Shown in pieces: positions 582 to 34,844 of a stretch of 50,430 nt of DNA. Source of the stretch: Candidatus Micrarchaeota archaeon (GTDB taxonomy: Archaea > Micrarchaeota > Micrarchaeia > Micrarchaeales > CABMGC01); the NCBI GenBank assembly GCA_021810375.1, contig JAJZJB010000002.1, positions 1 to 50,430 on the forward strand, read 5' to 3'. The translations under genes were made by a program, and so were the position numbers. Position 1 is the stretch's first letter. Every line of letters starts with the position of its first letter. The notes below the pieces were generated by a model, which worked only from the letters and a program-made list of their open reading frames with translations, was not told where the DNA came from and did no database searches.

Positions 582-683
582 AGCAATGATCCGGAGAGCC
601 TTAGATGAATGGATATTCTATGACGGTGGGTTCTGAAATATGATATCTATGGGCGAAACGCATCAGGCATGCTAAACCGGAAC

Positions 684-718
684 GTAGGCGCATCTCCAGA
701 TGCCATTGGCGTGCGCCC
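684..718 (+). repeat. Intergenic structured repeat, copy G (partial)
   Basis: gtaggcgcatctccagatgccattggcgtgcgccc aligns with the central part of copies A/B. It contains the hairpin gcatc-tcca-gatgc. Confidence 0.6.
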
Positions 719-735
719 TACAACAATTTGCATAT

Positions 736-927
736 TTAGCCTTTCTTCAATTCAAGCCTTGATGGATCTGCCTTAAATCCCGCGCCCGCATGTGCACCGC
801 TGCAGAACGGCTTCTTGGTCGAATGTCCGCATCTGCACAGTGCATACTCAACTTTTCCGTCAACCTTAACAAGCAGTGGGCCGTCTTTAGTGAACTCAAA
901 TTCTATATTTGCCATGGTCTCACACAA
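736..927 (-). CDS. CDGSH-type iron-sulfur domain protein
   Basis: CRCGHSTKKPFCSGAH matches the C-x-C-x2-S/T-x3-P-x-C-D/S-G-x-H CDGSH signature. The ORF is 63 aa. Confidence 0.75.
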   Translation of the reverse strand: MCETMANIEFEFTKDGPLLVKVDGKVEYALCRCGHSTKKPFCSGAHAGAGFKADPSRLELKKG

Positions 928-990
928 ATGTTTGTGCTTAATGGTATTAAATACCTTCAGTTTATTTCAGCCCGCTTATTGATTACGGCA

Positions 991-1058
991 GTGCCAGAAT
1001 GCCATCGCCAGGTGCACAGTATGTGCGTCAGGCGCATCTCCGACAAGGAGGATTTTTA
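991..1058 (+). repeat. Intergenic structured repeat, copy A (downstream of copA)
   Basis: gtgccagaatgccatcgccaggtgcacagtatgtgcgtcaggcgcatctccgacaaggaggattttta. The last 28 nt (1031-1058) are identical to 4534-4561. Confidence 0.85.
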
Positions 1059-1203
1059 TACTGTCGACTTTCACCCTGTTTTCGCATATAAATGTGTATA
1101 CTAGATATACATTCATTTAAATGAATTTACAAGAGTGTATATTGTTTAAATTCATGTATATTATTTAAATTATAAGGGGCGAACAGGTGGGCGAGCGTGG
1201 CTG

Positions 1204-3276
1204 TTACGATACCTTGAACCTCGCCAGCAACAAGGAGTTAGAAACTACGGTCACAGAGCTAAAGGCCATGGCAAAGGCAGCCAATAGCGGTAAAATGCTG
1301 TAGACACTTGCCGTGAAGAACGGTATTAGCACGCCAGCAGCTACAGGAATCAGGACTATGTTGTATGCGAATGCCCAGAAGAGGTTCTGCCTTATCTTGT
1401 CCATTGTCCTCTTGCCTAGTTGTATGGCGATGAATGCATCGTAGATACTATTCTTTATCAGGACTATGCTGCCGGCCTGAAGTGCAACATCTGTGCCTGC
1501 TCCAATCGCTATGCCTACATCGGCCTTTGTCAGCGCAGGCGCGTCGTTTATGCCGTCTCCGATCATTGCAACAACCTTTCCCTCCTTCTGCAGCTGCACT
1601 ATCTTGTCCATTTTGTCCTTGGGCTTTGCCTGTGGGATCACGTTGCTTATGCCTAGCTGCTTTGCTACGGCATTTGCCACCCTTTCGTTATCGCCGGTTA
1701 TCAGCCATATCTCGTAGCCTGAGCTTTTGAAAGCATTTATCGCCTTCTTGCTGTCTTCCTTGATGACGTCTGCCAGCGCTATCAGCCCTATAATCTTGCC
1801 ACTGACGCCAACAATGAGCGTGGTTTTGCCTTCAGATTCTAGCTTCTGCAGTTGTTTCTCTACATTGCCAATCTGTTTATTATCGAATAGATCCCTGTTC
1901 CCGATAACTATCCTCCTGCCATTCTTGTCAAGTGCCGTTATGCCGCTGCCCTGTTTGTAGGTGAACTTCTTTGGAAACTCCGCCTTTATGCCAAGCTTAT
2001 CGGCCTTTGCTATTATCGCCTTCCCTATTACGTGCTCAGAGTTCATCTCGGCTGTGGCTGCAAATCTTAGTATCTCTTTCTCTTTGTATCCAGAAACCGC
2101 AACTATGTCCATGACCTCTGGCTTTCCCTTTGTAAGCGTACCTGTTTTATCCAATACCAATGCGTTGATCTTGCTAGCTTTCTGCAGGCTTTCTCCGCTC
2201 TTTACCAGTATCCCTTCCTTCGCAGCTCTGCCGGAGGAGACAAGCAACGCTGCAGGCGTTGCTATGCCAATGGCGCACGGGCATGCTATTATCAGAACGC
2301 TTACGAATATGAGTATAGATACATTCGCACTTACTCCTCCTATGAAGTACCAGGACAGCGAAGCCAGAATTCCGACAAGCACGACTATTGGTACAAAATA
2401 CGATGCGACCCTGTCTGCCAGTTTCTGTATGGGAACTTTGCTTGAGGCCGCATCTTGAACAATTTTTATTATCTGCGATAGCGCAGTATCCTCTCCAATC
2501 TTGGCTGTCCTGACTTTCAGAGAGCTTGTGGCATTGATGGTGCCGCCCATCACCTTGTAGCCTGCCCTCTTGGTAACGGGCATGCTCTCGCCAGTAATCA
2601 TGGACTCGTCAACGGAGCTTTCCCCTTCCACAACAACAGAATCAGTAGGTATCTTCTCTCCGGGCTTCACAAGGAGCATGTCTCCCCTCCTGATTTGCTC
2701 TATGGCGGTGTCAACAACCTTGCCACCTTCAATCCTGTGCGCTACCTTAGGCTGCAGGGCGATAAGTGCAGAAACAGCAGTAGACGCCCTTGATTCTGCG
2801 AGCCTCTGCATGTATGTTCCAGTGAGTATCAAGGAGATTATTATTGTCGAGGTATCGAAATATATACCTCCAGCAGGGAAGAGTGATGGCAAAAGCGTAA
2901 CCGCAGTACTATAGACCCATGCTGCGCTTGTGCCTATCGCAATCAACGTATCCATGTTGGCAGACTTGTTCTTTATTGCATCCGCTATGCCAGCATAGAA
3001 CCTCTGCCCAGCATAGAACTGCACTATACTCGCCAGAACCAGCATTATGTAGTTGCCAAAGCCAAGGTGCAGAACGTAAGTAAGTATTGCAACTATGATA
3101 GTAAGGGGCCATGAAATCATCAATGCGATTCTCAGGTTCCTAAGTTCCCTCTCGGGCCTCTCGAACTGAAGCTTGCAGTTTGTACTGCAGAAATAGTACT
3201 TCTTGCCTTCCTTTTCAGTAGCCAATGTAGAGTTTCTTTCATCAACATACATGCCGCATACAGGGTCTGTTGCCAT
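1204..3276 (-). CDS. copA: Copper-translocating P1B-type ATPase with an N-terminal TRASH/YHS-like metal-binding domain
   Basis: Motifs seen: CPC (IACPCAIG), DKTGTLT, ITGES and [10 protein letters not shown], plus N-terminal DPVCGM...YYFCSTNC. I moved the start to ATG 3276 (MATDPVCGM) because an upstream small ORF ends at 3281. Confidence 0.93.
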
Positions 3277-3280
3277 AATA

Positions 3281-3424
3281 TCATCTCTTTTTGCTGGCTT
3301 CGATAGTGCGCCTTGCAACACTCAGATTGCAGCCATCATGCGCAGAGCACCATTTGCGGCACTCTGTCGCCAATCTTCTGCTCCTGTAATGCAAACCGCA
3401 TATGGCGCATTTGTACTCCGTCAT
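3281..3424 (-). CDS. Small Cys-rich (CxxC...CxxxC) protein in the cop operon, 47 aa, absent from the ORF track
   Basis: Hand translation gives [47 protein letters not shown]. It lies 2 nt after the upstream stop and 4 nt before the copA start. Confidence 0.5.
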
Positions 3425-3426
3425 GG

Positions 3427-3567
3427 CTAACTCTTTGCATAGTTATCTGGCTTCTTGTCAAAGTTCTGCTTGCAGTTAGCGGAGCAAAAGACATAGGTTT
3501 TGCCCTTATAGCTGCTCCTGAACCTGGAGTTCTCTTCTACATCCATTTTACATACAGGATCTTTCAT
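3427..3567 (-). CDS. TRASH/YHS-domain metallochaperone-like protein, 46 aa, absent from the ORF track
   Basis: Hand translation gives MKDPVCKMDVEENSRFRSSYKGKTYVFCSANCKQNFDKKPDNYAKS. The DPVC-x-M...YxFCSxxC pattern is the same as in the CopA N-terminus. Confidence 0.7.
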   Translation of the reverse strand: MKDPVCKMDVEENSRFRSSYKGKTYVFCSANCKQNFDKKPDNYAKS

Positions 3568-3571
3568 TTTT

Positions 3572-3946
3572 TCACCTTTTATCTAATTTTAACGCCCAAT
3601 TGTATACCAGTGCAATTGCAAGCCCAGCCAAGGCACCCAACACAATGTCGATTATCACAGGGGCAATGCCATAGCTGTGGAATACGTCTCCATTGGGATA
3701 GTATCCGGTTCCGTTGTATGGATAGAATATGCCGTTCATCATGTAGCCGAATGTTGCGTTATGGAATACGCCACCCATCATGTAGCCTGTGTACCCATTC
3801 ATCATGCCGTATCCACCAAAGTAACCCACTGTCCCATAGCCAGAGAAACTGAAAGAGATGAACGACAGCCAGCAAAGGAACCCAATAACTGCCCCTGTTA
3901 TCGCAGCTGCCTTCACATTTATCTCAGAAAAGGTTTGCTTAGCCAT
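3572..3946 (-). CDS. Two-TM membrane protein with a Met/Gly/Tyr/His-rich loop, in the cop operon
   Basis: Hydrophobic segments flank GYGTVGYFGGYGMMNGYTGYMMGGVFHNATFGYMMNG. It sits tightly packed between the regulator and the chaperone genes. Confidence 0.55.
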   Translation of the reverse strand: MAKQTFSEINVKAAAITGAVIGFLCWLSFISFSFSGYGTVGYFGGYGMMNGYTGYMMGGVFHNATFGYMMNGIFYPYNGTGYYPNGDVFHSYGIAPVIIDIVLGALAGLAIALVYNWALKLDKR

Positions 3947-3959
3947 ATTTTCACTAATA

Positions 3960-4394
3960 TTATTGAGTATTCAGCGTCCTGTAGCCCTTAGCGCAGTTCT
4001 CACAGCAGAAGCTCAGTAGCCTGCCGTTAATCTTTTCCTTATATCCACCCTTGTATATCTCGCAGTTACAATGTGCGCACACGGTAAGCTTTGGCTTTAT
4101 CGCAATCTCAAACATGTTTCCGAACTTATCTGAGAGCCGTGCCACGAACTTCCTGCCTTCCGGAGTAAGATAATAGGCCTGCCTGTCCCTCTCTGCCCTG
4201 CCTTTTGTTTCAACATAACGATACTTTTTCAGTTGCTTGAGGAACGGATATATCTGTCCTGGGCTGACCTTCTTGCCTGTCTTTTTCTCCACCTCTTTCA
4301 TTATCTCATAGCCATGCTGTCCTTTCTCACTGAGCAGAAGGACTGTGAACAACTTCACCATGTTCTTTATCTCTATGTCGGGCATTGCATTCAC
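3960..4394 (-). CDS. PadR-like winged-helix regulator with a C-terminal TRASH-like Cys motif (probable copper-responsive regulator)
   Basis: N-terminal GYEIMKEV...SPGQIYPFLKQL is PadR-like. The C-terminus has CAHCNCEI...FCCENC. It is the first gene of the cop cluster. Confidence 0.7.
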   Translation of the reverse strand: MNAMPDIEIKNMVKLFTVLLLSEKGQHGYEIMKEVEKKTGKKVSPGQIYPFLKQLKKYRYVETKGRAERDRQAYYLTPEGRKFVARLSDKFGNMFEIAIKPKLTVCAHCNCEIYKGGYKEKINGRLLSFCCENCAKGYRTLNTQ

Positions 4395-4477
4395 TATGTA
4401 TCATATTATGATATATATAAATATGTTATGTTGCTATACTGGAATGGTATTACTAGTTAGCAGCATAATTGAACAGA

Positions 4478-4561
4478 GTGTGGCACGGGGGTTGGCCATG
4501 AAGCGCATCGCCAGATGCACAGTATGCGCCACGGGCGCATCTCCGACAAGGAGGATTTTTA
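4478..4561 (+). repeat. Intergenic structured repeat, copy B (upstream of the cop operon)
   Basis: gtgtggcacgggggttggccatgaagcgcatcgccagatgcacagtatgcgccacgggcgcatctccgacaaggaggattttta. It has hairpins gcatc-gcca-gatgc and atgcgcc-acg-ggcgcat. Positions 4496-4519 match 21 of 24 nt of the tRNA-Asn-proximal 24-mer. Confidence 0.88.
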
Positions 4562-4690
4562 GACGGATTTTTGCTCCCTTATCATATTGGCATGAATAAC
4601 GTATAATAATTTAAATAATTCAGTTGTATTTTAGTATGTGGTGTAACCATAGCTAAGAAGAGTCTAAACTATGCTATTATCCTAATTATT

Positions 4691-7600
4691 GTGGTAGTAA
4701 TATCTATAATCGCTGTACTCCTGCTAACAACGAGATCGCCTGGCACGCAAGCAGAAAATCTTAGCACGTTGGATCCTTTTGCCCATCTGGGCAATGCCTC
4801 GTTCGCTTTGGTCGCGCCGCGTAGTGTTTTGGCAGCCAACGGCCAGTTTGCGTCACTGGCAAGGGAAAGATATGATTTCAGGTACGCTGATGCATCTAAT
4901 TTCACAAACGTCCAGAATTCCACCTTCATAGTGATTGTAGTAAACAGCAGTAATGATGCATACGCGCAACTTGCGCTGAAGGCCATCAATATCACAGAGC
5001 TTGACAATGCTCTCAATTACACAAAAGGCGCAATGATAAGCAAAGATAATGTATGGGAGCACGGTCAGACCGTGTTTCTGTTAATAGGGTACAACGCAAG
5101 CTCGCTTTCTTCGGCTCTGTCGAGTTTTTTTGTTAAAAGCCCTGTCTACGCCCCAAAGCAGTTTAGCGCCAGATTCGTGAATGAGAGCGGCAAGGCATCT
5201 GGCGACCCGATAATGGACGCGGTTCTTGACGGTTCTTATGAGCTCAGTCCACATGACAGCGCACTTCCATACCCGTACAGCTATTACGATAACTTTGCAT
5301 ACCTGATATATTATGCTCCTGTGATAACCTCGATAGTTCCGGGATTGGAAGGCAACAGTTCGGGTGTTGGATTACCGCTGTTTGCTCCAATATGCATGCC
5401 GCCCCCTCCTCCTCCTGGAGGCGGTTCATCGATGTGCGTAGGCGATTATGCTGCAATGCCAATGCTGCAAGTAGGAAGTGCGCCACCTTTGCGCCCGCAA
5501 TGGAGCTATGATACCGGAGACTGCGATTTCTTTGGCATAGATGACTGCATAGATGCCGAGGGATGGTCGGCTTCGGGACTGAACCCGCAGCTTCCCTACA
5601 GAGAGATACCAAGCGTCTACTTCGGAGTCACTTTTACTGGAAGTCCTGTCCCTCCGTCGATGGATGGCACATTTGGCCCAGTGTCGGACAGCCTCCCGAT
5701 CACCTGGTGGGTTTATGGACCGGACTCGTTCGGAGAGTCAACCGGAGGGTTCCAATCGAGCCTATCTGGGGTTATGAACGAGTCTGAGACTGCACTGCTG
5801 ATCAACGCAGGCGTTGACATGTTCTCTGCGCCCATAGGCGAAACCCCTGTCGGCAATTTTACCGTATACAACGCAACAAACTCCTCTTCTACGTATTCGT
5901 GCGGCAGCGAAATATGCGGAATGAGATTCAACTACACCATATATGCGCTCCTTAACGTGTCAGCCACGATACCGGGGAGCGCATCGGTGGCGTCTCCGCG
6001 AGGATATTCTCCAAAGTCGCAGCTTAACTATTCGCCGGTGCTGGAACCTGTATCGCTCACCACGCCCAAAATTGTGAAAACCTCTGCGGAGACATACTAC
6101 TTCAGCTACTGGAGCGTCTACTCCGAGCTGGCGGGCAACCAATACTACAAAAGATACAGCACGTCAGATATAACATTCCAGCTTATAGGACCAACGCAGG
6201 CCAGGGCTATATATACAACAAATACCACTGCGGCCAGCGGCCCCGGCAATGTTACAATATACAGCGATTATATTCCTATGTTCCAGTTTGGGTCATGTTC
6301 TAACAACCCTGCGAACTGCACGAAGTACGGAGCTTATTACCGGATACCAAATGTCTCTGTGTCGATATCGATACCCGGGGGGAAGGCGGTGTTTTCGGGG
6401 GCCACAAACGCAACAGCAACGGCAGTTACTGGAAAGCTTGCAGGCGGGTGCTACAATGTTGCCGTTTCTAAACCGGGTTACAATCTTTTCGCAGATCCGA
6501 ATCCGCTATGCGTCAACGGCGCAACATCGTTGTTCCTAGTCGATACGGATCCTTACATATTCAATATAACGTGGCCGTCATCATATCCGTATGCACTTGC
6601 GCCTGTCAACAGCACTATACCAATTAACGTATCTGTGCGCTATGCCAGCACCGGGGCATCTGCAGGAAATTCCTCAAGGTATCTGTATGCACACACCACT
6701 TCGGGCATAATGGAGGGATACTCTTCTGGGCGCATAGTAAACGGCTATTCAAACCTCTCATCAAACGGAACTGCGGACTTTTTGTGGGAGGTTGGCAAGA
6801 CTCCCGGTATACACGGAATAAACTTTACGATCGGCGTGGGATGGCCCATACTGTCGGAATCCTACTTTATGCCAGTGGTTGCCTATTCCGGCAATTATTT
6901 GAGGACAGAGTTGAACATAAGCCTTTCAAATACAACAGAATACGCTTCTCCGGGAGAGTCTTTCGCCGACAACATAACCGTAAGGCTGTGCAGAACGTAT
7001 CTCATTTCAAACAGGACGCTACCGTGCATTCCTTTAGCGCCGTACGCTGCAAATATGTCGTTGGCATACGTGAATGACAGACCAGTCAATTCCACATATG
7101 CATTCGTGCCTAATCCTGCCGCCGTGAACTCAAAGTCGCTTGATGACACTACGGCCCTTCGCATATCGCTCGGCAATAGCGTGGTAAGTGGTCTGTATGT
7201 AGCGCACATCACGGCTACAATGTCAACGGCCAACGGGGTTTACAATGCGACTGTGCCGCTGCTAATGCATGTATCCAAGAACGGCAGCGCCAGCACAACT
7301 ACCACGGTAACGCCCACCACATCCATAACTACCACTATACCCGGTGGTTCTGGTTACGGCGCATTGAATGTAACAGTACTCTTCAATGGCGCTCCGGCAG
7401 ATACAGCGCAGGTGCGGGCATTTTCGCCTGGTGTGCAAAACTATGGCGGGTGGTACACAGGATCCAATGGGGAATACAGCACAGGATTCATTATAATCCC
7501 GGGCTCATACGAGGTCGATGCCACGTACGACAACATAACCAACAGTACCAATTACCTGAATGTAAGCGCAGGAAAGGTGACATTTGTAAATATAGAAATA

Positions 7601-7828
7601 TATGGTGCTGTAAATACAACTACAATGTCATCGTCATCTACGACCACCACTACTTCGATGACATCTACTTCTTCCACCAGCACGACATCGTCTTCAACAA
7701 CTACTGTGCAATCGGGCTATTACTCATGTAATTTATGTTATCAGATCATAATTGACGGCGATTCGTGCCCTCCAAGCTGCCCTACATCAATTTCGTGCAA
7801 TAAATTTGGAGGCTTCGAGTGCACGTAG
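4691..7828 (+). CDS. Large signal-anchored surface protein, sequon-rich, with a Ser/Thr linker and a Cys-rich C-terminus
   Basis: 1045-aa ORF with an N-terminal hydrophobic segment and more than 30 N-x-S/T sequons by eye. It has a PPPPPPGGG tract, an S/T run (SSSSTTTTTSMTSTSSTSTTSSSTTT), and then 8 Cys in the last 40 aa. Confidence 0.6.
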   Translation: MVVISIIAVLLLTTRSPGTQAENLSTLDPFAHLGNASFALVAPRSVLAANGQFASLARERYDFRYADASNFTNVQNSTFIVIVVNSSNDAYAQLALKAINITELDNALNYTKGAMISKDNVWEHGQTVFLLIGYNASSLSSALSSFFVKSPVYAPKQFSARFVNESGKASGDPIMDAVLDGSYELSPHDSALPYPYSYYDNFAYLIYYAPVITSIVPGLEGNSSGVGLPLFAPICMPPPPPPGGGSSMCVGDYAAMPMLQVGSAPPLRPQWSYDTGDCDFFGIDDCIDAEGWSASGLNPQLPYREIPSVYFGVTFTGSPVPPSMDGTFGPVSDSLPITWWVYGPDSFGESTGGFQSSLSGVMNESETALLINAGVDMFSAPIGETPVGNFTVYNATNSSSTYSCGSEICGMRFNYTIYALLNVSATIPGSASVASPRGYSPKSQLNYSPVLEPVSLTTPKIVKTSAETYYFSYWSVYSELAGNQYYKRYSTSDITFQLIGPTQARAIYTTNTTAASGPGNVTIYSDYIPMFQFGSCSNNPANCTKYGAYYRIPNVSVSISIPGGKAVFSGATNATATAVTGKLAGGCYNVAVSKPGYNLFADPNPLCVNGATSLFLVDTDPYIFNITWPSSYPYALAPVNSTIPINVSVRYASTGASAGNSSRYLYAHTTSGIMEGYSSGRIVNGYSNLSSNGTADFLWEVGKTPGIHGINFTIGVGWPILSESYFMPVVAYSGNYLRTELNISLSNTTEYASPGESFADNITVRLCRTYLISNRTLPCIPLAPYAANMSLAYVNDRPVNSTYAFVPNPAAVNSKSLDDTTALRISLGNSVVSGLYVAHITATMSTANGVYNATVPLLMHVSKNGSASTTTTVTPTTSITTTIPGGSGYGALNVTVLFNGAPADTAQVRAFSPGVQNYGGWYTGSNGEYSTGFIIIPGSYEVDATYDNITNSTNYLNVSAGKVTFVNIEIYGAVNTTTMSSSSTTTTTSMTSTSSTSTTSSSTTTVQSGYYSCNLCYQIIIDGDSCPPSCPTSISCNKFGGFECT

Positions 7829-7840
7829 GTGGGCCAGGCA

Positions 7841-7894
7841 GTTTGTGGTACGGGAGTATAACCCGAAGGGCATCTCCCACGGGAATAATTTAAA
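7841..7894 (+). repeat. Intergenic structured repeat, copy E (internally deleted)
   Basis: gtttgtggtacgggagtataacccgaagggcatctcccacgggaataatttaaa matches the 5' and 3' ends of copy D but lacks the middle. Confidence 0.75.
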
Positions 7895-7915
7895 TGACTT
7901 CATATTTATAGTCAA

Positions 7916-8386
7916 ATGCTGAGTAATATGGCTAAGAAGGATTATACAACCACGATTTTAGTGGATAAAAGCCCGGAAGAGGTTTTTAAGGCAATCAACA
8001 ATGTTCGAAAGTGGTGGTCTGGAGAGATCACGGGTAGGACAGATAGGCTTGGTGCTGTGTGGGAGTACCACTACAAGGACATGCACCGTTCAAAACAAAA
8101 GATAACAAAACTTATCCCAGGCAAAAGAGTAGTATGGCACGTTGTGGACAGTTATCTTAGCTTTATAAAAGATAAAGAAGAATGGAACGGCACGGACATT
8201 GTATTTGATATAGCCAAAAAGGGCAGCAAGACAGAACTGCGTTTCACGCACGTTGGCCTTGCTCCAAAAATCGAATGCTACGATGCCTGTTCGGACGCAT
8301 GGGGTTTTTACATAAAAACTAGTTTGCGCAACTTTATCATGAAAGGCGAAGGCCAGCCAAATCCTAAAGAAAAGAAGGAAAAATGA
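7916..8386 (+). CDS. SRPBCC/AHSA1-like (START-fold) protein
   Basis: About 155 aa. The pattern VDKSPEEVFKAINNVRKWW...ELRFTHVGL is typical of the Aha1/polyketide-cyclase-like SRPBCC family. Confidence 0.6.
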   Translation: MLSNMAKKDYTTTILVDKSPEEVFKAINNVRKWWSGEITGRTDRLGAVWEYHYKDMHRSKQKITKLIPGKRVVWHVVDSYLSFIKDKEEWNGTDIVFDIAKKGSKTELRFTHVGLAPKIECYDACSDAWGFYIKTSLRNFIMKGEGQPNPKEKKEK

Positions 8387-8457
8387 GAGGAAGTATGACT
8401 TGGATGCCATCGCCCGAAGCACAAGATGCGCCACAGGCGCATCTCCGACAGCAGGAA
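8387..8457 (+). repeat. Intergenic structured repeat, copy C
   Basis: gaggaagtatgacttggatgccatcgcccgaagcacaagatgcgccacaggcgcatctccgacagcagg starts right after the SRPBCC stop. It contains the hairpin atgcgcc-aca-ggcgcat. Confidence 0.8.
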
Positions 8458-8528
8458 GTACGCAGATTCGTAATGGCTTGCAAACAAGACATTATCAGGT
8501 TTTAGAATATATAAAATATGCACTTGTA

Positions 8529-8555
8529 ATGCATAATTTAAGTTAAATTATGCAT
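8529..8555. promoter_or_regulatory. Perfect 13-bp-arm palindrome upstream of the ATPase gene (candidate operator)
   Basis: ATGCATAATTTAA-G-TTAAATTATGCAT lies 43 nt upstream of ATG 8598, next to the AT-rich box atttaaata. Confidence 0.4.
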
Positions 8556-8597
8556 TTAAAACGCAAGATTTAAATAGACAAACTACAATATAACCTC

Positions 8598-9884
8598 ATG
8601 GAAACGGAGCTGATTAAGCGAGCAATAAAGGACCAGGAAGAAGAGGTGCTATCTAAATTCAACTCTGAAAGAATAATAGATAGGGAGTATTCTACTGAGA
8701 TTCAAAGACATATCACAAAGGCCAACGCAGTAGTAATAACCGGAGTGAGGCGCAGCGGGAAGTCAACAGAAGCAATTCTGCTGGTAAAAGGGAAGCGCCA
8801 TGCGCATCTAAATTTTGATGATCCTTCATTAGAGGGAATGAAGGGCCCGGACTTGGTAAAGGTTACAGAAGCAATGGCAGAGTTAAAAGGCAACGTAGAA
8901 TACATAATATTAGACGAAATTCAAAATGTGAAGGGCTGGGAACTTTATGTATCTAGACTTCGCGAAACCAAAAAAGTGATTGTGACAGGAAGTAATTCTG
9001 AACTAATGTCAGAAGAATTAGCAAGTAGATTAACCGGGAGATACACCAGCTTTACGGCCTTCCCTTTTTCTTTCAGAGAGTTTCTTGATTATAACAGATT
9101 CAAGCCAGACGTGTATTTAACAAATGATATAGCAAAAACCAGGGGATTTCTTGACAAATACATGCTAAGAGGCGGATTTCCAGAAGCGTTAGCATTGGGG
9201 GAAAGGTTCTTAACACAAATTTATAGTGACATCATAACAAAGGACATAGAAAGAAGGTATAGTATAAAACACAGATCAACGTTTAGGGAATTCTCGAAAT
9301 ACGTAGTTTCTAACATATCAAAGGAAATGAGTTACAACAAGCTGAAGAATATATTCGAGATAAAGAGTGTGCATACGGTTAAGAATTACCTAGGTTTTTT
9401 GGAGAAGGCGTATATTGCATTCAAAGTAGACAAGTATTCCAATAAACTAAAACAACAGGTTTTGACAGGCAAGAAAGTTTACTGCATAGATACCGGACTC
9501 GCAAACGCCCTCGGCTTCAGGATCGATGAAGAAAAGGGAAGGTTACTTGAGAATGTGATAGCAATAGAACTTTTGAGGAGGAAATCGTATTGGAACATTC
9601 ATACAGAGATATACTTCTGGCAGGATTACAAGCAGCATGAGGTAGATTTTGTAGTAAAGGAAGGTGGCTCGATAAAGCAACTGATACAAGTTTCATATAG
9701 GATAGAAGACAGTGATACTAAAGAGAGAGAAATAAGGTCACTGCTGGCTGCCTCCAAAGAGCTAAGGTGCAATGACTTATTAATCATAACTTATGACTTT
9801 GAAGGCGAAGAAGAAAAAGATGGCAAGAAAATAATATTTATGCCTGCATGGAAGTGGCTGCTGCTTGCAAGCGGAAGTAGCTGA
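8598..9884 (+). CDS. AAA-type ATPase of the archaeal ATPase / DUF4143 family (COG1373-like)
   Basis: Walker A is GVRRSGKST and Walker B is IILDEIQN. The 428-aa length and the C-terminal region are typical of this family. Confidence 0.75.
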   Translation: METELIKRAIKDQEEEVLSKFNSERIIDREYSTEIQRHITKANAVVITGVRRSGKSTEAILLVKGKRHAHLNFDDPSLEGMKGPDLVKVTEAMAELKGNVEYIILDEIQNVKGWELYVSRLRETKKVIVTGSNSELMSEELASRLTGRYTSFTAFPFSFREFLDYNRFKPDVYLTNDIAKTRGFLDKYMLRGGFPEALALGERFLTQIYSDIITKDIERRYSIKHRSTFREFSKYVVSNISKEMSYNKLKNIFEIKSVHTVKNYLGFLEKAYIAFKVDKYSNKLKQQVLTGKKVYCIDTGLANALGFRIDEEKGRLLENVIAIELLRRKSYWNIHTEIYFWQDYKQHEVDFVVKEGGSIKQLIQVSYRIEDSDTKEREIRSLLAASKELRCNDLLIITYDFEGEEEKDGKKIIFMPAWKWLLLASGSS

Positions 9885-9890
9885 GTTATG

Positions 9891-9976
9891 GCTTGTGGCA
9901 CGGGAGTATAACCTGAAGCGCATCGCCCGATGCACAAGATATGCCACAGGCGCATCTCCGGCAAGGAAATTTTAAA
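9891..9976 (+). repeat. Intergenic structured repeat, copy D (best match to the tRNA-Asn flank)
   Basis: gcttgtggcacgggagtataacctgaagcgcatcgcccgatgcacaagatatgccacaggcgcatctccggcaaggaaatttta. Positions 9911-9934 are identical (24/24) to 11716-11739. Confidence 0.9.
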
Positions 9977-10069
9977 TAATGTGTTTTAATTGATGTAAAT
10001 CGTATAGCTTTATTTAAATTATTTAGACATATAAGTAATGTACAGGGTAGGGTACTAAAACAGATTAGT

Positions 10070-10606
10070 ATGGTCCGATTTATGGCTAAAAACAAGCAGA
10101 TGATTTTTACTATAGGCCACTCAATACGTAAGCTTAGCGAATTTGTGAGGTTGCTGGACGCATACAAGATAAAGGAATTGGTAGATATACGCACCATACC
10201 AAAGTCCAGGGCCAATCCGCAGTTCAATGAGAAACGACTTGCTTCTAGCCTAAAGAGGCATCGCATACGCTACGTGCATATGAAAGGACTTGGAGGTCTC
10301 AGACATCCGTTGAAGGATTCGGCCAATACGTACTGGTACAATGCGTCATTCAGAGGCTTCGCAGACTATATGCAGACCAGCGAGTTCAGAGAGAGTCTTC
10401 TCGAGCTTATAAGCCTGGCAAAGAAAAGGCAGATAGCCATAATGTGTGCAGAGGCAGTGCCATGGAGATGCCATAGATCGCTTATAGCGGATGCGCTTCT
10501 GGTCAGAGGCATAGATGTCAGACATATATTTAGTCCAACCAATTCAAAGCCCCATGAGCTTACAAAAAGCGCAAAGGTAAATAAGCTGAATATAGTGTAT
10601 AAATAA
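10070..10606 (+). CDS. DUF488 family protein
   Basis: IFTIGHS...DIRTIPKSR...CAEAVPWRCHRSLIAD is the characteristic DUF488 pattern. The start may be a few codons downstream. Confidence 0.75.
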   Translation: MVRFMAKNKQMIFTIGHSIRKLSEFVRLLDAYKIKELVDIRTIPKSRANPQFNEKRLASSLKRHRIRYVHMKGLGGLRHPLKDSANTYWYNASFRGFADYMQTSEFRESLLELISLAKKRQIAIMCAEAVPWRCHRSLIADALLVRGIDVRHIFSPTNSKPHELTKSAKVNKLNIVYK

Positions 10607-10624
10607 CTAATATGCAAGAGATGC

Positions 10625-11053
10625 TTGGTGCTGTTTATGGATAATGTTACTGCAACTAGCAAGATGGTAAGGCTTTACATAGCTACGGGGTTCTTGTACT
10701 TCGTAATAGGCACAATACTTCTTGCTTTTAGCCTGTCTGGCACAGTTGCTGTGGATAGGGATCCAATATTCATACTATTATTGTATGGTTTTGTCACGCA
10801 GCTGATTTTTGGCGTTTCGTATATTTTTGTGCCTGGTGTCTCACGCCATAGCGGAGCAAATTATAAGGTCATAGCCGCAGAATACATCCTCCTAAATGCA
10901 GGGATAATTGCATTCGAGGGTATTGCACTCACAGGACAGAAGGATGCCGCAGTAATCCTTGGGGGGTTGATGGCGATGATTGTAGCTGTTCTGTTGCATG
11001 CAGCCAACATATGGCGCACGATAATCGGCAGGAAAAGTGGGAATGCGGCATAG
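10625..11053 (+). CDS. Integral membrane protein, about 4 TM, function unknown
   Basis: 142-aa ORF with four hydrophobic stretches. No motif recognised. Confidence 0.45.
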   Translation: MVLFMDNVTATSKMVRLYIATGFLYFVIGTILLAFSLSGTVAVDRDPIFILLLYGFVTQLIFGVSYIFVPGVSRHSGANYKVIAAEYILLNAGIIAFEGIALTGQKDAAVILGGLMAMIVAVLLHAANIWRTIIGRKSGNAA

Positions 11054-11061
11054 AGTGAGAA

Positions 11062-11706
11062 TTATACCATCCTTGATAGTGCCTCCTTCTTTGCTTTATC
11101 ATCGATATAATTATCTATCCACGGATACATGTCTTCTTCCTCCATCTTATCATGTGCTGCCAGCAACTGTTCCAAGTCATTCTCAAGGGTTGTATCTCTG
11201 GCTTTTAAGCAATCAGCCAATCCCCTTAGATCATCTTTAATCCTGTTATGCTGCATTATCAGTTCGTCTATCATTGGTGAGTCATCTCCCATTTTCTTCT
11301 TGGCAAGTGGGAATAAGATATCTTCCTCCCATTTTATATGACGCTCAATGCCTGCCCTAAATTCCAAAAAGAGTTGCTCTGCTTCTGCCGCGTTTTTCGA
11401 TTTCCTGAACTCCTGGAAGATGTAGTCAAGCCTTGAATGGTCTCTGGACATGAATCCGTATATGTCTTGCTCCCTCTTAGAGTAAGCGCTCTTTGCCTGC
11501 TTCCATACATCCCATGCAATGGCAAACTTTATTATCTGCGGTTCTGCACCTTTTGTTGCTTCATCCAACGTAAGTTTGTACTTGGTTTTCATGTATTCCA
11601 AGAACTCTTTATCGTACTGCTCCATACAGTGTGTGTTGTCTTTTAAGCAATTTAAGCGTTGCGAGATGAAATATATACTGCAAATACCCATTGGACTTTT
11701 GAGCAC
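11062..11706 (-). CDS. Hemerythrin-like (HHE cation-binding) domain protein
   Basis: HSRLDYIFQEF, HIKWEEDILFP and LLAAHDKMEEEDMYP are hemerythrin-like His/Glu helices. The likely true start is ATG 11625 (MEQYDKEF). Confidence 0.65.
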   Translation of the reverse strand: MLKSPMGICSIYFISQRLNCLKDNTHCMEQYDKEFLEYMKTKYKLTLDEATKGAEPQIIKFAIAWDVWKQAKSAYSKREQDIYGFMSRDHSRLDYIFQEFRKSKNAAEAEQLFLEFRAGIERHIKWEEDILFPLAKKKMGDDSPMIDELIMQHNRIKDDLRGLADCLKARDTTLENDLEQLLAAHDKMEEEDMYPWIDNYIDDKAKKEALSRMV

Positions 11707-11715
11707 TGTGATTGT

Positions 11716-11739
11716 ACCTGAAGCGCATCGCCCGATGCA
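11716..11739 (+). repeat. Intergenic structured repeat, copy F: the 24-mer overlapping the tRNA-Asn 3' end
   Basis: acctgaagcgcatcgcccgatgca. Positions 11729-11739 are the last 11 nt of tRNA-Asn (minus strand) and 11716-11728 are its 3' flank. Confidence 0.9.
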
Positions 11740-11800
11740 GGGATCGAACCTGCGACATCCTGGTTAACAGCCAAGCGCTCTACCACTGAGCTAATCGGGC
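11729..11800 (-). tRNA. tRNA-Asn (anticodon GTT)
   Basis: Hand-folded cloverleaf: GCCCGAT/ATCGGGC acceptor, GCTC/GAGC D stem, CTTGG-CTGTTAA-CCAGG anticodon arm, GCAGG-TTCGATC-CCTGC T arm. 72 nt, no encoded CCA. Confidence 0.92.
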
Positions 11801-12483
11801 ATTTTGAAGAATGGGAACGGCTCTGCGAGCTTTACTATCTTGATGTAAATATAAGAATGCTCGCCCACTGTTTCCGCAAACTCGAAGGTGTTGCTGGAAT
11901 AGCTGTACTTTGCAAAACCCCCTCTGCTCTTATCTTTCGTCTCCGCATAATAAAAGGTTTTCCTATCGTCTGATAATTCGTCTATCAGGTCAAAACCAGA
12001 TATAAAACGCTTGCCCTTGGCCTCGAACTCGTAGAGCGTGGCAAAAGATTCCTCGCGCACAGATTTCTTTATCATTGCATGGACGAGGTCCCTGTCTGAG
12101 CTTACCCTTATCTGGAGGACGTCGCCTTTGCCGATTTCCTTGACCTCCTTGAATGAGGATAGATCTACATTGAATATGTTTATGAAATCTTTTTCAGAAC
12201 CGTCTACCCGCTCCGAGAAATGCGCGGTTTCTGTCTGTCCCATAGATGAAGGGAATGTATATTTTATGAAACTATGCTGCGTGTCAATGTTTATGTAATA
12301 GGCAATTACATTTTCCTTTATGCATTCGCCCAGAGCCACGAGGCGCGCTGTACCGCCATTTTTGTAAAGTATAAGGCTCTTGGAGCTGAAGTCGAAGTTG
12401 TATGCGTACCTGGCAAGGTCTACCATTGAAGACAGCTTGATGTAAAGTATACCTTTTCCCTTAGGCTTGTTCTTCTGCGGCAT
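11791..12483 (-). CDS. Hypothetical protein (230 aa); its stop codon lies inside the tRNA-Asn 5' end
   Basis: Long ORF with no recognised motif. The last codons ATG CCC GAT TAG are the first 10 nt of the tRNA. Confidence 0.45.
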   Translation of the reverse strand: MPQKNKPKGKGILYIKLSSMVDLARYAYNFDFSSKSLILYKNGGTARLVALGECIKENVIAYYINIDTQHSFIKYTFPSSMGQTETAHFSERVDGSEKDFINIFNVDLSSFKEVKEIGKGDVLQIRVSSDRDLVHAMIKKSVREESFATLYEFEAKGKRFISGFDLIDELSDDRKTFYYAETKDKSRGGFAKYSYSSNTFEFAETVGEHSYIYIKIVKLAEPFPFFKMPD

Positions 12484-12494
12484 GCAAACACACT

Positions 12495-13334
12495 TCAGTT
12501 GTTGGTAAATAGCCTGTAGATGTCGGACAGGAACAGCATAAGGCTGTATGCGGGCTCAACTATAACAGGGGATATCACGACTCCCTGTCCTGTTGCGTAG
12601 TAGTCGTTCAACAGGCTTGCCTGCGCATACACTGTAATAGGTATTGATCTTGTTATCAGCGGGCTAGGAGCCGATGTGGCAGTGAAATTCAGGTGGTAAA
12701 CTCCAGGCTCACCTACAGAGATAGGATAAACGAATGATGATACGGAATCGTGGCTGGCTATGACTACATCAGAGAAGTTCCATGCAGGCAGGCCGGTTAC
12801 ATTGAGAACAAAAGGGTCGTCAGATATGCCAGTGTTGTTTATCTGCACGTCTAGATTGGTAGGCTGGCTCACCCCCATGTTGACAGTTGATGGGCTTACC
12901 GATAGGTTGAATACATCGGGAGTCACATTCACGTAAGCATATATGGTAAGATTCCCGAGATGCGAATAGTTTCCCTGATTGATTGCGACTATGGTCAGGT
13001 TATATGTGCCGTATTGTGCGTATGGCGAGGCAGTTATCTTAAGTTTCATGGGATTCTCGTAGAGGGGTGACGCCTGGGAAGACCATCCTTGCGGAAGGTT
13101 AACTGCTGTCAGCTGGTCCCAGCCTACATTCACGAACGAGCCGCTCGCGTTGTCAGTTGAAGGAGACGCCTGTATATAGAAGCTCTGCCCCGGGCCGAGC
13201 TTGCCTAGGAATATGGTACCGCGGTTATGCAGGGTGCCGTTGACGGGCCCCTGAACCTGCAGGTATGTGGCTGCGTTAGCGCTCAGTGCTATCAGCGAGA
13301 TAAATGCAAAGGGCAGCAGGATGTTTTTGAGCAT
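12495..13334 (-). CDS. Secreted or membrane-anchored protein with a signal peptide, sequons and a C-terminal hydrophobic tail
   Basis: N-terminal MLKNILLPFAFISLIALSANA is signal-like. There are several N-x-S/T sites, and the C-terminus has the hydrophobic PAYSLMLFLS. Confidence 0.5.
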   Translation of the reverse strand: MLKNILLPFAFISLIALSANAATYLQVQGPVNGTLHNRGTIFLGKLGPGQSFYIQASPSTDNASGSFVNVGWDQLTAVNLPQGWSSQASPLYENPMKLKITASPYAQYGTYNLTIVAINQGNYSHLGNLTIYAYVNVTPDVFNLSVSPSTVNMGVSQPTNLDVQINNTGISDDPFVLNVTGLPAWNFSDVVIASHDSVSSFVYPISVGEPGVYHLNFTATSAPSPLITRSIPITVYAQASLLNDYYATGQGVVISPVIVEPAYSLMLFLSDIYRLFTNN

Positions 13335-34209: not shown

Positions 34210-34281
34210 GCCCCAGTAGCTCAGTGGTAGAGCGCCAGTTTTGTAAACTGGATGTCGAGGGTTCGATTCCCTTCTGGGGCT
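34210..34281 (+). tRNA. tRNA-Thr (anticodon TGT)
   Basis: GCCCCAG/CTGGGGC acceptor, GCTC/GAGC D stem, CCAGT-TTTGTAA-ACTGG anticodon arm, GAGGG-TTCGATT-CCCTT T arm. 72 nt. Confidence 0.9.
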
Positions 34282-34331
34282 TCCGGCATTTCATCCGGAC
34301 TCAGCGAATTTAAATAGCTTGGCAGGGCAAT

Positions 34332-34832
34332 GTGCTTATGGCCAATAGAAAGCTTAGGAGATATGGGCTGGAAGCCGTAGCCAAAGTGCTGATATTCATA
34401 GGATTCCTCTTTGTCCTCTTTTCCTGGGCTGCCAGTGTCTATTACTTCGGGTCGGTCGGCAGGTTTACTCTGTTTCTGGTACCACTCATATTCACATGCG
34501 TACTGGCTCTGCTTCTTTTGGTGATCAGATACAGGTACACGCTATTTGAGGGATATCCGTATCTTATGAGCCTTCCATCGTTGTTCTACCACATAAAAGA
34601 GAGGAAAGGATCCGACAATCGGAGCGTTGCATTCAGCATGATATTCACAGTGCATGCGCTGGTGATTGCCTTTTTGGGAATCATGAGCCTTGTTCTGGTG
34701 GTCAGCATAGGATCTAGCATCAGGGGCGGCACGGCGTCGCCGATCTTATACTCGTATTTGCTGGTAATTGCAGTCCTCATTGCCTCGGTGTTGCTGCAGT
34801 ACCGCAGGATATACATCAGGTTTGTTAAGTGA
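34332..34832 (+). CDS. Integral membrane protein, 4 TM, function unknown
   Basis: 166-aa ORF with four clear hydrophobic segments. Confidence 0.5.
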   Translation: MLMANRKLRRYGLEAVAKVLIFIGFLFVLFSWAASVYYFGSVGRFTLFLVPLIFTCVLALLLLVIRYRYTLFEGYPYLMSLPSLFYHIKERKGSDNRSVAFSMIFTVHALVIAFLGIMSLVLVVSIGSSIRGGTASPILYSYLLVIAVLIASVLLQYRRIYIRFVK

Positions 34833-34844
34833 GTCTTAGCGAAA

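What the first reader, a model, noticed from the sequence alone, without database searches (positions are those of the whole stretch)
684..11800. Seven same-orientation hairpin repeats cut the 11 kb beside tRNA-Asn into cassette-like units
Copies lie at about 684, 991, 4478, 7841, 8387, 9891 and 11716, all on the same strand and all intergenic. The consensus is roughly gtggcacggg-agtataacctgaagcgcatcgcccgatgca-caag-atgcgccacgggcgcat-ctccgacaaggaggatttt. It contains two small palindromes (gcatcg-cc-cgatgc and atgcgcc-acg-ggcgcat) and an internal direct repeat gcgcatc(g/t)cc. The last copy is a 24-mer (11716-11739) identical to 9911-9934, and 11 nt of it are the 3' end of tRNA-Asn. Similarity to that 24-mer falls with distance from the tRNA: 24/24 at 9911, 21/24 at 4496, about 17/24 at 8400 and at 996. 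Each interval holds one gene or one operon of accessory type: CDGSH; the cop operon; a surface glycoprotein; SRPBCC; an AAA ATPase; DUF488 plus a membrane protein plus a hemerythrin. On the plus-strand genes the repeat begins within a few to about 12 nt after the stop codon, which recalls attC placement in integron cassettes. Three readings are possible. One is relics of serial site-specific integration at tRNA-Asn. A second is an integron-like cassette array. A third is a REP/MITE-like element that happens to share sequence with the tRNA flank. No recombinase is visible in the window.
Basis: partly seen in the sequence, partly recalled or inferred. Interest (0 to 1): 0.82.

Follow-up and report, generated by a model that had tools for sequence, protein, structure and literature searches.

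The report
Stacked integrase-less gene units at tRNA-Asn
The repeats are the joints left by mobile gene units that inserted one after another at the end of a tRNA-Asn gene in a tiny acid-mine archaeon (Micrarchaeota), building a strain-variable island of defence and metal-resistance genes whose units are swapped between species.

Summary
Seven same-strand copies of a roughly 85-nt sequence lie between window position 681 and tRNA-Asn (11728-11801, minus strand), and none lies in the other 38 kb of the window or in the 10 kb to its left. They are attachment-site junctions, not REP/MITE elements and not integron attC sites. Each has an A arm, a 24-bp core whose last 11-12 nt are the tRNA-Asn 3' end, and a B arm. 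Across Micrarchaeota species the B arm travels with the genes on its right and the A arm with the genes on its left, so recombination happens in the core. Sister strains lack exactly the 1805 bp between the two identical 24-mers. Another species carries a strain-specific 3304-bp unit inserted at the same tRNA-proximal core. The DUF488 unit is 98% identical in a different species but only 90% identical in a strain whose core genes are 99.9% identical. The window holds no recombinase. In related Micrarchaeota, however, an approximately 408-aa Xer-like tyrosine integrase sits directly next to tRNA-Asn, core and A arm, and one inserted unit keeps an 88-aa stub of it. The best reading is serial site-specific integration with loss or absence of the integrase. 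Whether integrase-less units are still mobilised in trans, integron-style, remains open.

The parts
681..704 (+). Degenerate core-like remnant (AACGTAGGCGCATCTCCAGATGCC), the oldest and outermost detectable site
   Evidence: It matches the 24-mer at 17/24, and no random best-of-80 window among 2000 exceeded 15/24. The repeat profile does not detect it.
973..1060 (+). Full junction R1: A arm of the CDGSH-side unit, core, and B arm of the cop unit
   Evidence: nhmmer E 4e-22. The B arm and the next roughly 70 nt (to about 1130, an AT-rich stretch with the palindrome ATTCATTTAAATGAAT) recur next to other cargo in L069, L080 and L035.
1204..4394 (-). Unit 1 cargo, a copper-resistance operon: CopA P-type ATPase with YHS domain, a small YHS protein, a 124-aa membrane protein and a PadR/TRASH regulator
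   Evidence: Pfam and gene tables. It is 93.5% identical in L035 (another species' MAG) but only 80.5% identical in L015, a strain with 99.9% identical core genes.
4472..4563 (+). Full junction R2
   Evidence: nhmmer E 2e-24; core 21/24.
4691..7828 (+). Unit 2 cargo: a 1045-aa surface-type protein
   Evidence: ORF with a weak CarboxypepD_reg hit. It is absent in L015, and a 69%-identical homologue sits next to the tRNA in L020.
7840..7895 (+). Collapsed junction R3': A arm, then the core fused to the B arm across the internal direct repeat GCGCATC, then a TATA-like TTTAAAT
   Evidence: nhmmer positions 6-44; sequence read directly.
7916..8386 (+). Unit 3 cargo: SRPBCC/AHSA1-like protein
   Evidence: Pfam PF08327.
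8376..8459 (+). Full junction R4; carries the perfect palindrome AGATGCGCC-ACA-GGCGCATCT
   Evidence: nhmmer E 3e-20; inverted repeats I8/I11.
8598..9884 (+). Unit 4 cargo: AAA_14/DUF4143 ATPase, which matches the PADLOC candidate defence system PDC-S01
   Evidence: Pfam; PADLOC 2e-107. Versions of this gene sit in the tRNA-Asn arrays of four other species.
9886..9976 (+). Full junction R5: A arm of the ATPase unit, the 24-bp core and the B arm of the DUF488 unit
   Evidence: nhmmer E 4e-25. In strains without unit 5, its A arm and core join the tRNA directly.
9935..11739 (.). Unit 5 as an 1805-bp insertion/deletion polymorphism, equivalently 9911-11715. It holds the B arm, DUF488 (10070-10606 +), a 142-aa protein (10625-11053 +), hemerythrin (11062-11625 -), the A arm and the core
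   Evidence: It is absent from L001, L011 and L018 exactly between the two 24-mers. The same unit, 98.0% identical, lies inside the array of another species (L069) with the same arms.
11703..11739 (+). A arm of unit 5 plus the core, the tRNA-proximal attachment site where new units enter
   Evidence: nhmmer positions 14-50. Every strain and species examined keeps GAAG(C/G)(G/C)CATCGCCCGA(T/A)GCA against the tRNA.
11728..11801 (-). tRNA-Asn (GTT); its last 11-12 nt are the right end of the core
   Evidence: ARAGORN; Rfam tRNA 72 bits.

Best explanation
The 11 kb beside tRNA-Asn is a tandem stack of five or six small integrative units of 0.5-3.4 kb. They were inserted one after another by site-specific recombination at a 24-bp core formed by the last 11-12 nt of tRNA-Asn plus the following 12-13 nt. 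Each circular incoming unit carried an attP of the form A arm - core - B arm. Recombination with the tRNA-proximal site (A arm of the previous unit - core - tRNA) places the new unit next to the tRNA. It leaves behind a hybrid junction made of the old A arm, the core and the new B arm. These junctions are the roughly 85-nt 'repeats'. The enzyme is a Xer-like tyrosine integrase of about 408 aa that, in related Micrarchaeota, is encoded immediately beside the tRNA, core and A arm. The units in this window have no integrase: they lost it or never had one. They carry candidate defence genes and copper resistance, and they are exchanged between Micrarchaeota species. SHOWN: the repeat anatomy; repeat-bounded gain or loss; arms travelling with their genes; unit identity decoupled from core-genome identity; an integrase at the same site in relatives; an integrase stub inside one inserted unit. 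INFERRED: that this integrase family catalysed the insertions seen here; that the crossover lies inside the core; the circular intermediates.
For: (1) Polymorphism is exact to the base. L001, L011 and L018 lack window 9935-11739, so the A arm and core of R5 are fused to the tRNA. In a species whose core genes are 65% identical, strain L080 has an extra 3304-bp five-gene unit at the tRNA-proximal core with the core duplicated. (2) Arms go with genes. The B arm of R5 and the A arm at 11680-11715 both flank the DUF488 unit where it lies internally in L069. The 439-aa ATPase unit has the same B and A arms in L069 and in L077-L082. (3) Horizontal exchange. The DUF488 unit is 98.0% identical in L069 and 91.7% identical in L096, where core genes are 68% identical. 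It is only 90.1% identical in L015, where core genes are 99.9% identical. The order of the ATPase and DUF488 units is reversed in L069, and cargo varies (AbiE, PemK, CitMHS, a PD-Lambda-3 component). (4) Integrase. A PF00589 protein starts about 70 nt beyond tRNA-Asn, core and A arm in L099-L102, L103 and L108-L112. Its residues R, HxxR, W and Y align to XerA 4A8E. The 97-aa ORF of L080 is the N-terminal 88 aa of this integrase at 88.6% identity, with the B arm at the far end of that unit. (5) Displaced 3' halves of tRNA-Asn lie inside the arrays of L035 and L094. (6) Restriction to one locus. There is no copy in window 12-50 kb or in the 10 kb to the left, and only one locus per Micrarchaeota MAG in the scan of 185,579 genomes. 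(7) The conserved flank FKBP-saccharopine dehydrogenase-ornithine decarboxylase is 4.5 kb from the tRNA in one species and 15.5-17.3 kb away here.
Against: No integrase or integrase remnant exists in the window or in its 10-kb left flank, and the rest of this genome could not be searched. No complete integrase-bearing element with both ends was recovered, because contigs end inside them. No circular form was seen. The core is short, and the A and B arms are 65-90% alike between units. Homologous recombination between junctions, or allelic replacement through the flanks, could therefore produce the same indels. L069 shows clear deletion and fusion derivatives. All data come from metagenome assemblies and MAGs.
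Confidence: 0.8

Rival explanations
1. An active integron-like cassette platform. The integrase-less units are genuine mobilisable cassettes, and their conserved A-core-B site is kept so that an integrase encoded elsewhere, in the cell or on a co-resident element, can excise, capture and reshuffle them. The tRNA-proximal site would play the part of attI. This extends the best explanation rather than excluding it.
For: The same integrase-less DUF488 unit has identical boundaries against at least four different neighbours and in at least four species. Arm boundaries are sharp: the A arm starts 2-12 nt after the stop codon of the cargo gene and no integrase debris remains. Both observed recent gains are at the tRNA-proximal end. 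The cargo, candidate defence, toxin-antitoxin and metal-resistance genes, is typical of cassettes. Integrase-bearing relatives occur in the same samples.
Against: The cores of inner junctions differ at 3-7 of 24 positions, one junction is collapsed, and others are truncated. This looks like relaxed constraint. Integrase stubs in L080, L077 and L035 show that at least some units are decayed autonomous elements. No circular junction was observed.
Confidence: 0.3
2. The repeats are a conserved intergenic regulatory module (terminator plus promoter, or a transcription-factor operator), and the indels arise only by homologous recombination between copies. The match to the tRNA flank would be secondary.
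For: The B arm ends in an oligo-T or TATA-like stretch (GGATTTTTAT, TTTTAAAT) preceded by a 9-3-9 palindrome that looks like an operator. Copies sit just after stop codons and before the next gene. L069 contains derivatives best explained by homologous deletion.
Against: This does not explain why the array always starts at tRNA-Asn and includes its 3' end. It does not explain why a tyrosine integrase gene sits against the A arm in relatives, or why displaced tRNA-Asn halves occur in arrays. In R1 the promoter-like end faces the 3' end of a convergent gene. R4 has no T-run.
Confidence: 0.08
3. A REP- or MITE-like dispersed repeat that happens to share sequence with the tRNA-Asn flank.
For: It is short, partly palindromic, intergenic and multi-copy.
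Against: There are zero copies in the other 38 kb of the window and in 10 kb of left flank. In the genome-collection scan, each Micrarchaeota MAG hit has a single locus. All copies in an array have the same orientation. There are no terminal inverted repeats or target duplications. The arms co-vary with the neighbouring genes.
Confidence: 0.02
4. A classical integron array lacking its integrase (a CALIN), with attC sites.
For: It is a same-orientation array of short sites separating one-gene or one-operon units. Integrons have been reported in archaeal MAGs (PMC9668308).
Against: The copies have no RYYYAAC/GTTRRRY core sites at their ends (read directly). No common long imperfect hairpin forms, and folds differ between copies. 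There is no covariation. Units carry genes on both strands and have their own AT-rich upstream regions. The associated recombinase scores 39 bits against the integron-integrase model, whose cutoff is 265. The cited paper does not list Micrarchaeota and does not mention tRNA linkage.
Confidence: 0.02

Closest known systems
tRNA-gene-targeting integrative elements and genomic islands with tyrosine integrases, including tandem integration and later integrase loss in archaea (review PMC8371274; Islander database PMC4383910, listed)
   Same: The integrase gene lies next to the intact tRNA. A displaced copy of the tRNA 3' end marks the far boundary. Several elements are stacked at one tRNA. The integrase is lost after integration. 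Cargo is accessory and defence genes.
   Different: The units are very small (0.5-3.4 kb, often a single gene). The identity block takes only 11-12 nt from the tRNA, and the rest comes from the previous element. All units share one conserved attP of about 85 bp. The same integrase-less units recur in different species and at different array positions.
CIMEs (cis-mobilisable elements) and accretion-mobilisation at ICE attachment sites in Streptococcus thermophilus (from my own knowledge, not checked in the library)
   Same: Non-autonomous units are flanked by att sites recognised by an integrase encoded on a related element, and site-specific accretion builds tandem arrays.
   Different: This case is archaeal (DPANN). 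Up to six units are stacked, no conjugation module is involved, and trans-mobilisation is not demonstrated.
Integrons and CALINs, including those reported in archaeal MAGs (PMC9668308)
   Same: An ordered same-orientation array. New units enter at one fixed end. Units are shuffled between genomes. A Xer-related tyrosine recombinase is involved. Cargo is enriched in toxin-antitoxin and defence functions.
   Different: The sites are not attC hairpins and show no structural covariation. The capture site is a tRNA 3' end rather than attI beside intI. Units carry their own upstream regions and genes on both strands. The integrase is not IntI.
Xer-dependent modules (IMEX elements and pdif modules on Acinetobacter plasmids; from my own knowledge)
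   Same: Small gene modules are bounded by short recombination sites and use a Xer-family enzyme that the module itself does not encode.
   Different: The sites here are direct repeats tied to a tRNA. They are not 28-bp dif-like sites in alternating orientation. The enzyme is a dedicated integrase of about 408 aa with a C-terminal zinc ribbon, scoring below the XerA cutoff (83 bits against 220).

Membership tests
tRNA-targeting integrative element / genomic island (tyrosine integrase) | A direct repeat of the tRNA 3' end bounds the inserted DNA | tested here: met
   The 24-mer 9911-9934 equals 11716-11739 and includes the last 11-12 nt of tRNA-Asn. Degenerate copies lie at five more junctions.
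tRNA-targeting integrative element / genomic island (tyrosine integrase) | Presence/absence polymorphism exactly at the repeats | tested here: met
   An 1805-bp unit is absent in L001, L011 and L018. A 3304-bp unit is present only in L080.
tRNA-targeting integrative element / genomic island (tyrosine integrase) | Integrase gene adjacent to the intact tRNA | tested here: inconclusive
   Not met in the window. Met at the same tRNA, core and A arm in related species (L099-L103, L108-L112), and an 88-aa stub is present in L080.
tRNA-targeting integrative element / genomic island (tyrosine integrase) | Catalytic recombination at the site, with a circular excised form | not testable with these tools
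   This needs raw reads or biochemistry.
Integron | attC architecture: R''/L''...L'/R' imperfect hairpin with GTTRRRY at the cassette boundary | tested here: not met
   The ends carry no such core sites. Folds are inconsistent, with z from 0 to -3. Pairing equals the shuffled control.
Integron | IntI integrase with attI and the Pc promoter beside the array | tested here: not met
   The array starts at a tRNA. The associated integrase scores 39 bits on TIGR02249 (cutoff 265) and 25-34 bits on NF011946 (cutoff 435).
Integron | Mostly promoterless single-ORF cassettes in one orientation | tested here: not met
   The cop unit and the hemerythrin gene are on the opposite strand to the other cargo. 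Units hold 1-4 genes.
REP / MITE dispersed repeats | Many copies dispersed through the intergenic regions of the genome | tested here: not met
   No copy lies outside the 11 kb within about 70 kb of this genome. There is one locus per MAG in the genome-collection scan. A closed genome was not available.
CIME-like non-autonomous integrative units | Flanked by functional att sites of a related autonomous element and lacking their own integrase | tested here: met
   The units have A and B arms and the core but no integrase. The same arms flank integrase-bearing or integrase-stub elements.
CIME-like non-autonomous integrative units | Mobilised in trans by that integrase | not testable with these tools
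   There is only indirect support: the same unit occurs in several contexts and species.
Xer/dif modules | 28-bp dif-like sites (11-6-11) acted on by the housekeeping Xer recombinase | tested here: not met
   The palindromes are 6-2-6 and 9-3-9. The recombinase is below the XerA equivalog cutoff and carries an extra zinc ribbon.

The most novel reading that the evidence does not exclude
Micrarchaeota (DPANN archaea with roughly 1-Mb genomes) possess a functional analogue of the integron that evolved independently. It would be a cassette-capture platform in which the 3' end of tRNA-Asn serves as the fixed capture site. A Xer-like integrase with a zinc ribbon would act in trans on double-stranded attachment sites of about 85 bp. 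Integrase-less, self-expressing units of one to four genes, carrying candidate defence systems and metal resistance, would be captured, stacked and traded between species.
Probability: 0.3. Interest if true: 0.8.

Novelty: new variant of a known kind. Interest (0 to 1): 0.6.

Why it matters
DPANN archaea have minimal genomes and depend on hosts, and how they acquire and turn over accessory genes is poorly known. This locus is a compact, strain-variable island in which candidate defence systems (PDC-S01 ATPase, PDC-M45B DUF488, AbiE, a PD-Lambda-3 component, type I restriction-modification, GmrSD) and copper resistance are packaged as small units with a common attachment site and exchanged across species. 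It gives a concrete integrase and att-site pair (the P0019/P0020 integrase with A-core-B against tRNA-Asn-core) that can be tested in vitro. That pair could serve as a genetic tool for organisms that currently have none. If the integrase-less units prove to be mobilised in trans, it would be an independent invention of integron-like gene capture in Archaea.

Tried and rejected
- **Integron attC reading:** rejected on sequence, folding and covariation and on integrase family scores.
- **REP/MITE reading:** rejected on distribution.
- **Known RNA family:** Rfam finds only the tRNA.
- **Selected hairpin (RNA or ssDNA):** not supported. Pairing is 78.2% against 77.1% in shuffles, and the covariation score is reached by 31 of 500 shuffles.
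- **Recombinase in the window:** Pfam and PHROGs scans of genes from 12-50 kb, including those without annotation, found none. tblastn with the integrase family found no remnant in the window.
- **The conserved 230-aa and 279-aa genes on the other side of the tRNA as recombinase candidates:** the 279-aa protein looks secreted or surface-located. The 230-aa protein gives a confident AF2 model (pLDDT 86) with no PDB fold match (TM at most 0.22), so nothing suggests a recombinase.
- **Free viral or plasmid form:** three scans of viral contigs (core, B arm, integrase profile) gave only chance or marginal hits.
- **Metagenome pattern scan:** it gave only two further real loci, L087 and L090, so the family appears confined to a narrow acid-mine Micrarchaeota clade.
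- **A complete integrase-bearing element with both ends:** not recovered, because contigs L099-L103 end inside the element and L108 was limited by the flank size.
- **'Similarity to the 24-mer falls with distance' as a clock:** rejected as a clean trend. Some core variants (GCCATCGCC) are shared with junctions in other species, so they are partly inherited with the units rather than decayed in place.

Full report
**Observation**

The repeat family is real. The repeat finder recovers a 74-nt family at 976, 4479, 8381 and 9894, and a 36-nt family that adds 7843 and 11698. A profile built from the four full copies finds 973-1060, 4472-4563, 8376-8459 and 9886-9976 (E 1e-20 to 1e-25). It also finds a partial copy at 7840-7878 and a partial copy at 11703-11739. 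Elsewhere in the 50-kb window nothing scores better than E 0.6.

Sub-patterns of 19-24 nt give 2-3 hits each where 0.00-0.01 are expected, and all hits lie in the first 12 kb on the + strand.

tRNA-Asn(GTT) lies at 11728-11801 on the minus strand. The 24-mer 11716-11739 is identical to 9911-9934.

The weak '684' copy, which the profile misses, matches the core at 17/24, while 2000 random best-of-80 windows never exceed 15/24. It is therefore a genuine decayed site.

The 7841 copy is a full site collapsed between the two internal direct repeats GCGCATC.

The AAA_14/DUF4143 ATPase and the DUF488 protein also match the PADLOC candidate defence systems PDC-S01 (2e-107) and PDC-M45B.

**Organism**

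Exact-protein look-ups and a pattern scan of 185,579 species-representative genomes place the window in Candidatus Micrarchaeota MAGs. Many of the assemblies belong to one ENA series (ERZ272369xx to ERZ272375xx) that I think, without having checked it, comes from an acid-mine-drainage sediment survey. The other hits of that scan, in GC-rich bacteria, match only the pattern and are chance.

**Repeat-bounded polymorphism**

In L001, L011 and L018 (same species, flanks over 99.8% identical) the sequence runs ...GGCTTGTGGCACGGGAGTATAACCTGAAGCGCATCGCCCGATGCA|GGGATCGAACC... Here the A arm and core of junction R5 are fused directly to the tRNA. The 1805 bp carrying DUF488, the 142-aa gene and hemerythrin are missing exactly between the two 24-mers.

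Other strains of the same species have different neighbours next to the tRNA:
- L016 has another AAA_14 gene.
- L020 has a 69%-identical homologue of the 1045-aa protein.
- L015 has a DUF488 unit with an extra UDG gene, followed directly by a divergent cop unit.

In a second species (core genes 65% identical), strain L080 has a 3304-bp five-gene unit inserted at the tRNA-proximal core, with the core duplicated. This unit is absent from L077-L079, L081 and L082.

**Anatomy and the key test**

Each junction reads as follows:
- an A arm of about 20 nt, for example TTGTGGCACGGGAGTATAA or the variant TTGAGCACTGTGATTGTA;
- the core CCTGAAGCGCATCGCCCGATGCA, whose right end is the tRNA 3' end;
- a B arm, CAAGATGCGCCACAGGCGCATCTCCGACAAGGAGGATTTTTAT.

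If units integrate as circles by crossover in the core, the B arm should belong to the unit on its right and the A arm to the unit on its left. That is what cross-species comparison shows.

In L069, a different species' MAG, the DUF488 unit lies inside the array. It still carries the diagnostic B arm of R5 (...CTCCGGCAAGGAAATTTTAAATAATGTG...) on its DUF488 side. On its hemerythrin side it carries the A arm that abuts the tRNA in the window.

The 439-aa ATPase unit has the same B arm (...GGTAGTGCATTTTTATAATGTCTTCCAG) and the same A arm (AAGAAGCTATAGCTTGTGG...) in L069 and in L077-L082.

The B arm of the cop unit, plus about 70 nt of AT-rich palindromic sequence beyond it, recurs next to other cargo in L035, L069 and L080.

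**Horizontal exchange**

The identity of a unit is decoupled from the identity of the core genome:

| Comparison with the window | DUF488 unit | Core genes |
|---|---|---|
| L069 | 98.0% | not available |
| L096 | 91.7% | 68% |
| L081 | 84.6% | 65% |
| L015 | 90.1% | 99.9% |

The cop unit is 93.5% identical in L035 but 80.5% identical in L015.

The ATPase and DUF488 units are in the opposite order in L069. Arrays in other species carry AbiEi/AbiEii, PemK, a methyltransferase and CitMHS.

L069 also shows decay. It has three copies of the hemerythrin 5' end with its A arm. It also has a unit that fuses the B end of a cop unit to that fragment.

**The recombinase**

Neither the window nor its 10-kb left flank encodes a recombinase, and no remnant is detectable.

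I used homologues of the conserved 230-aa neighbour of the tRNA to walk to other species. In this way I found a PF00589 tyrosine recombinase of 408 aa that starts about 70 nt beyond tRNA-Asn, core and A arm in L099-L102, and an 80%-identical one in L103. Several of these contigs come from the same samples as the window-type contigs. A frameshifted copy at tRNA-Asn in L108-L112 is followed by a type I restriction-modification system and GmrSD.

The closest solved structures are the archaeal XerA proteins 4A8E (E 2e-12) and 5HXY. The R, HxxR, W and Y residues align. A C-terminal CxxC...CxxC ribbon is conserved. Scores are far below the cutoffs of the XerA, XerC/D and integron-integrase models.

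Relatives with 46-53% identity sit next to tRNA-His, in an element of at least 10 kb with resolvase and DUF3987 genes, and next to tRNA-Lys.

Crucially, the first ORF of the strain-specific unit in L080 is the N-terminal 88 aa of this integrase at 88.6% identity. It lies next to the A arm, with the B arm at the far end of the unit. A 17-aa stub lies beside the CitMHS unit.

L035 and L094 also contain displaced 3' halves of tRNA-Asn inside their arrays.

**Hairpins**

The three palindromes, GCATCG-CC-CGATGC, GATGCGCC-ACA-GGCGCATC and TCC-GACAA-GGA, are conserved as sequence. Single-strand folds differ between copies. On 21 distinct copies, pairing (78.2%) and covariation are not above the column shuffles. 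This fits protein-binding sites on duplex DNA better than an attC-like folded strand.

**Extent of the island**

The flank FKBP-saccharopine dehydrogenase-ornithine decarboxylase is 4.5 kb from tRNA-Asn in one species and 15.5-17.3 kb away here. The variable island therefore continues about 5 kb beyond the left end of the window. The finding covers its repeat-punctuated, tRNA-proximal part.

**Mechanism and comparison with known systems**

The evidence supports serial site-specific integration at the tRNA-Asn 3' end by this integrase family, with new units entering at the tRNA-proximal site. The ~85-nt repeats are hybrid junctions.

Tandem integration at one locus and loss of the integrase after integration are already described for archaeal mobile elements (PMC8371274). 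The kind is therefore known.

Four things are unusual here: the small size of the units; the attP of about 85 bp that all units share; the recurrence of the same integrase-less units at different array positions and in different species; and the host, a DPANN archaeon.

The array behaves like an integron but fails every defining integron feature that I could test. The archaeal integron survey does not mention Micrarchaeota or tRNA linkage.

Whether the integrase-less units are still mobilised in trans, or are relics spread by homologous exchange, cannot be settled without raw reads, a closed genome or biochemistry.

**Limits**

All sequences are metagenome assemblies. The crossover position, the circular intermediates and the activity of the integrase on these sites are inferred.

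Noticed in passing
window 11791-12483 (-) and 12495-13334 (-): Two genes without Pfam or PHROGs hits sit on the non-array side of tRNA-Asn in every Micrarchaeota species examined. One is a 279-aa secreted or surface-type protein. The other is a 230-aa protein whose AF2 model is confident (pLDDT 86, beta-rich, two lobes) but has no PDB fold match (TM at most 0.22). It has 24 invariant residues, including an E-H-S motif and a C-terminal AEPFPFF.
   Followed up: partly
L035 6238-6317 and L094 6534-6579: Displaced 3' halves of tRNA-Asn, running from the anticodon loop to the 3' end, lie inside the arrays. The L094 copy is heavily decayed. In L035 the half-tRNA abuts an AAA_14 gene that is inverted relative to the array, with CGCCCGATGCA and a B arm on its other side. 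This suggests that a second kind of integration event, with its crossover in the anticodon loop, has also used this tRNA.
   Followed up: partly
window 1058-1175; L069, L080 and L035 next to their B arms: An AT-rich stretch of about 70 nt beyond the B arm is conserved between units with different cargo in several species. It contains GTGTATAC..TATACAT and the perfect palindrome ATTCATTTAAATGAAT. It may be a longer integrase-distal arm, a replication element or a regulatory element of the parent element.
   Followed up: no
P0019-P0026 (for example L099 9963-11189): The integrase family carries a conserved C-terminal CxxC...CxxC zinc ribbon that weakly matches ribosomal protein L40e. JGI annotates some members as 'XerD/ribosomal protein L40E'. 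Sub-branches of the family sit at tRNA-Asn, tRNA-His and tRNA-Lys.
   Followed up: partly
window 34210-36041: tRNA-Thr (34210-34281, +) is followed directly by a 166-aa ORF and a 398-aa ORF with no Pfam or PHROGs hits. I did not check whether this is another tRNA-linked insertion.
   Followed up: no
window 8508-8576: A 34-nt AT-rich inverted repeat (76% complementary, 1 nt between the arms) lies just upstream of the AAA_14/DUF4143 gene. It is the longest inverted repeat in the first 13 kb.
   Followed up: no
L097 4255-4845: In a related species the tRNA-Asn island also holds an IS200/IS605-type Y1 transposase and a Fic gene, so other kinds of mobile DNA also accumulate at this locus.
   Followed up: no
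window 26630-29293 (-): An 887-aa ORF has no Pfam or PHROGs hit, although it lies among housekeeping genes (Phe-tRNA synthetase subunits and a replication-factor-C-like AAA protein).
   Followed up: no
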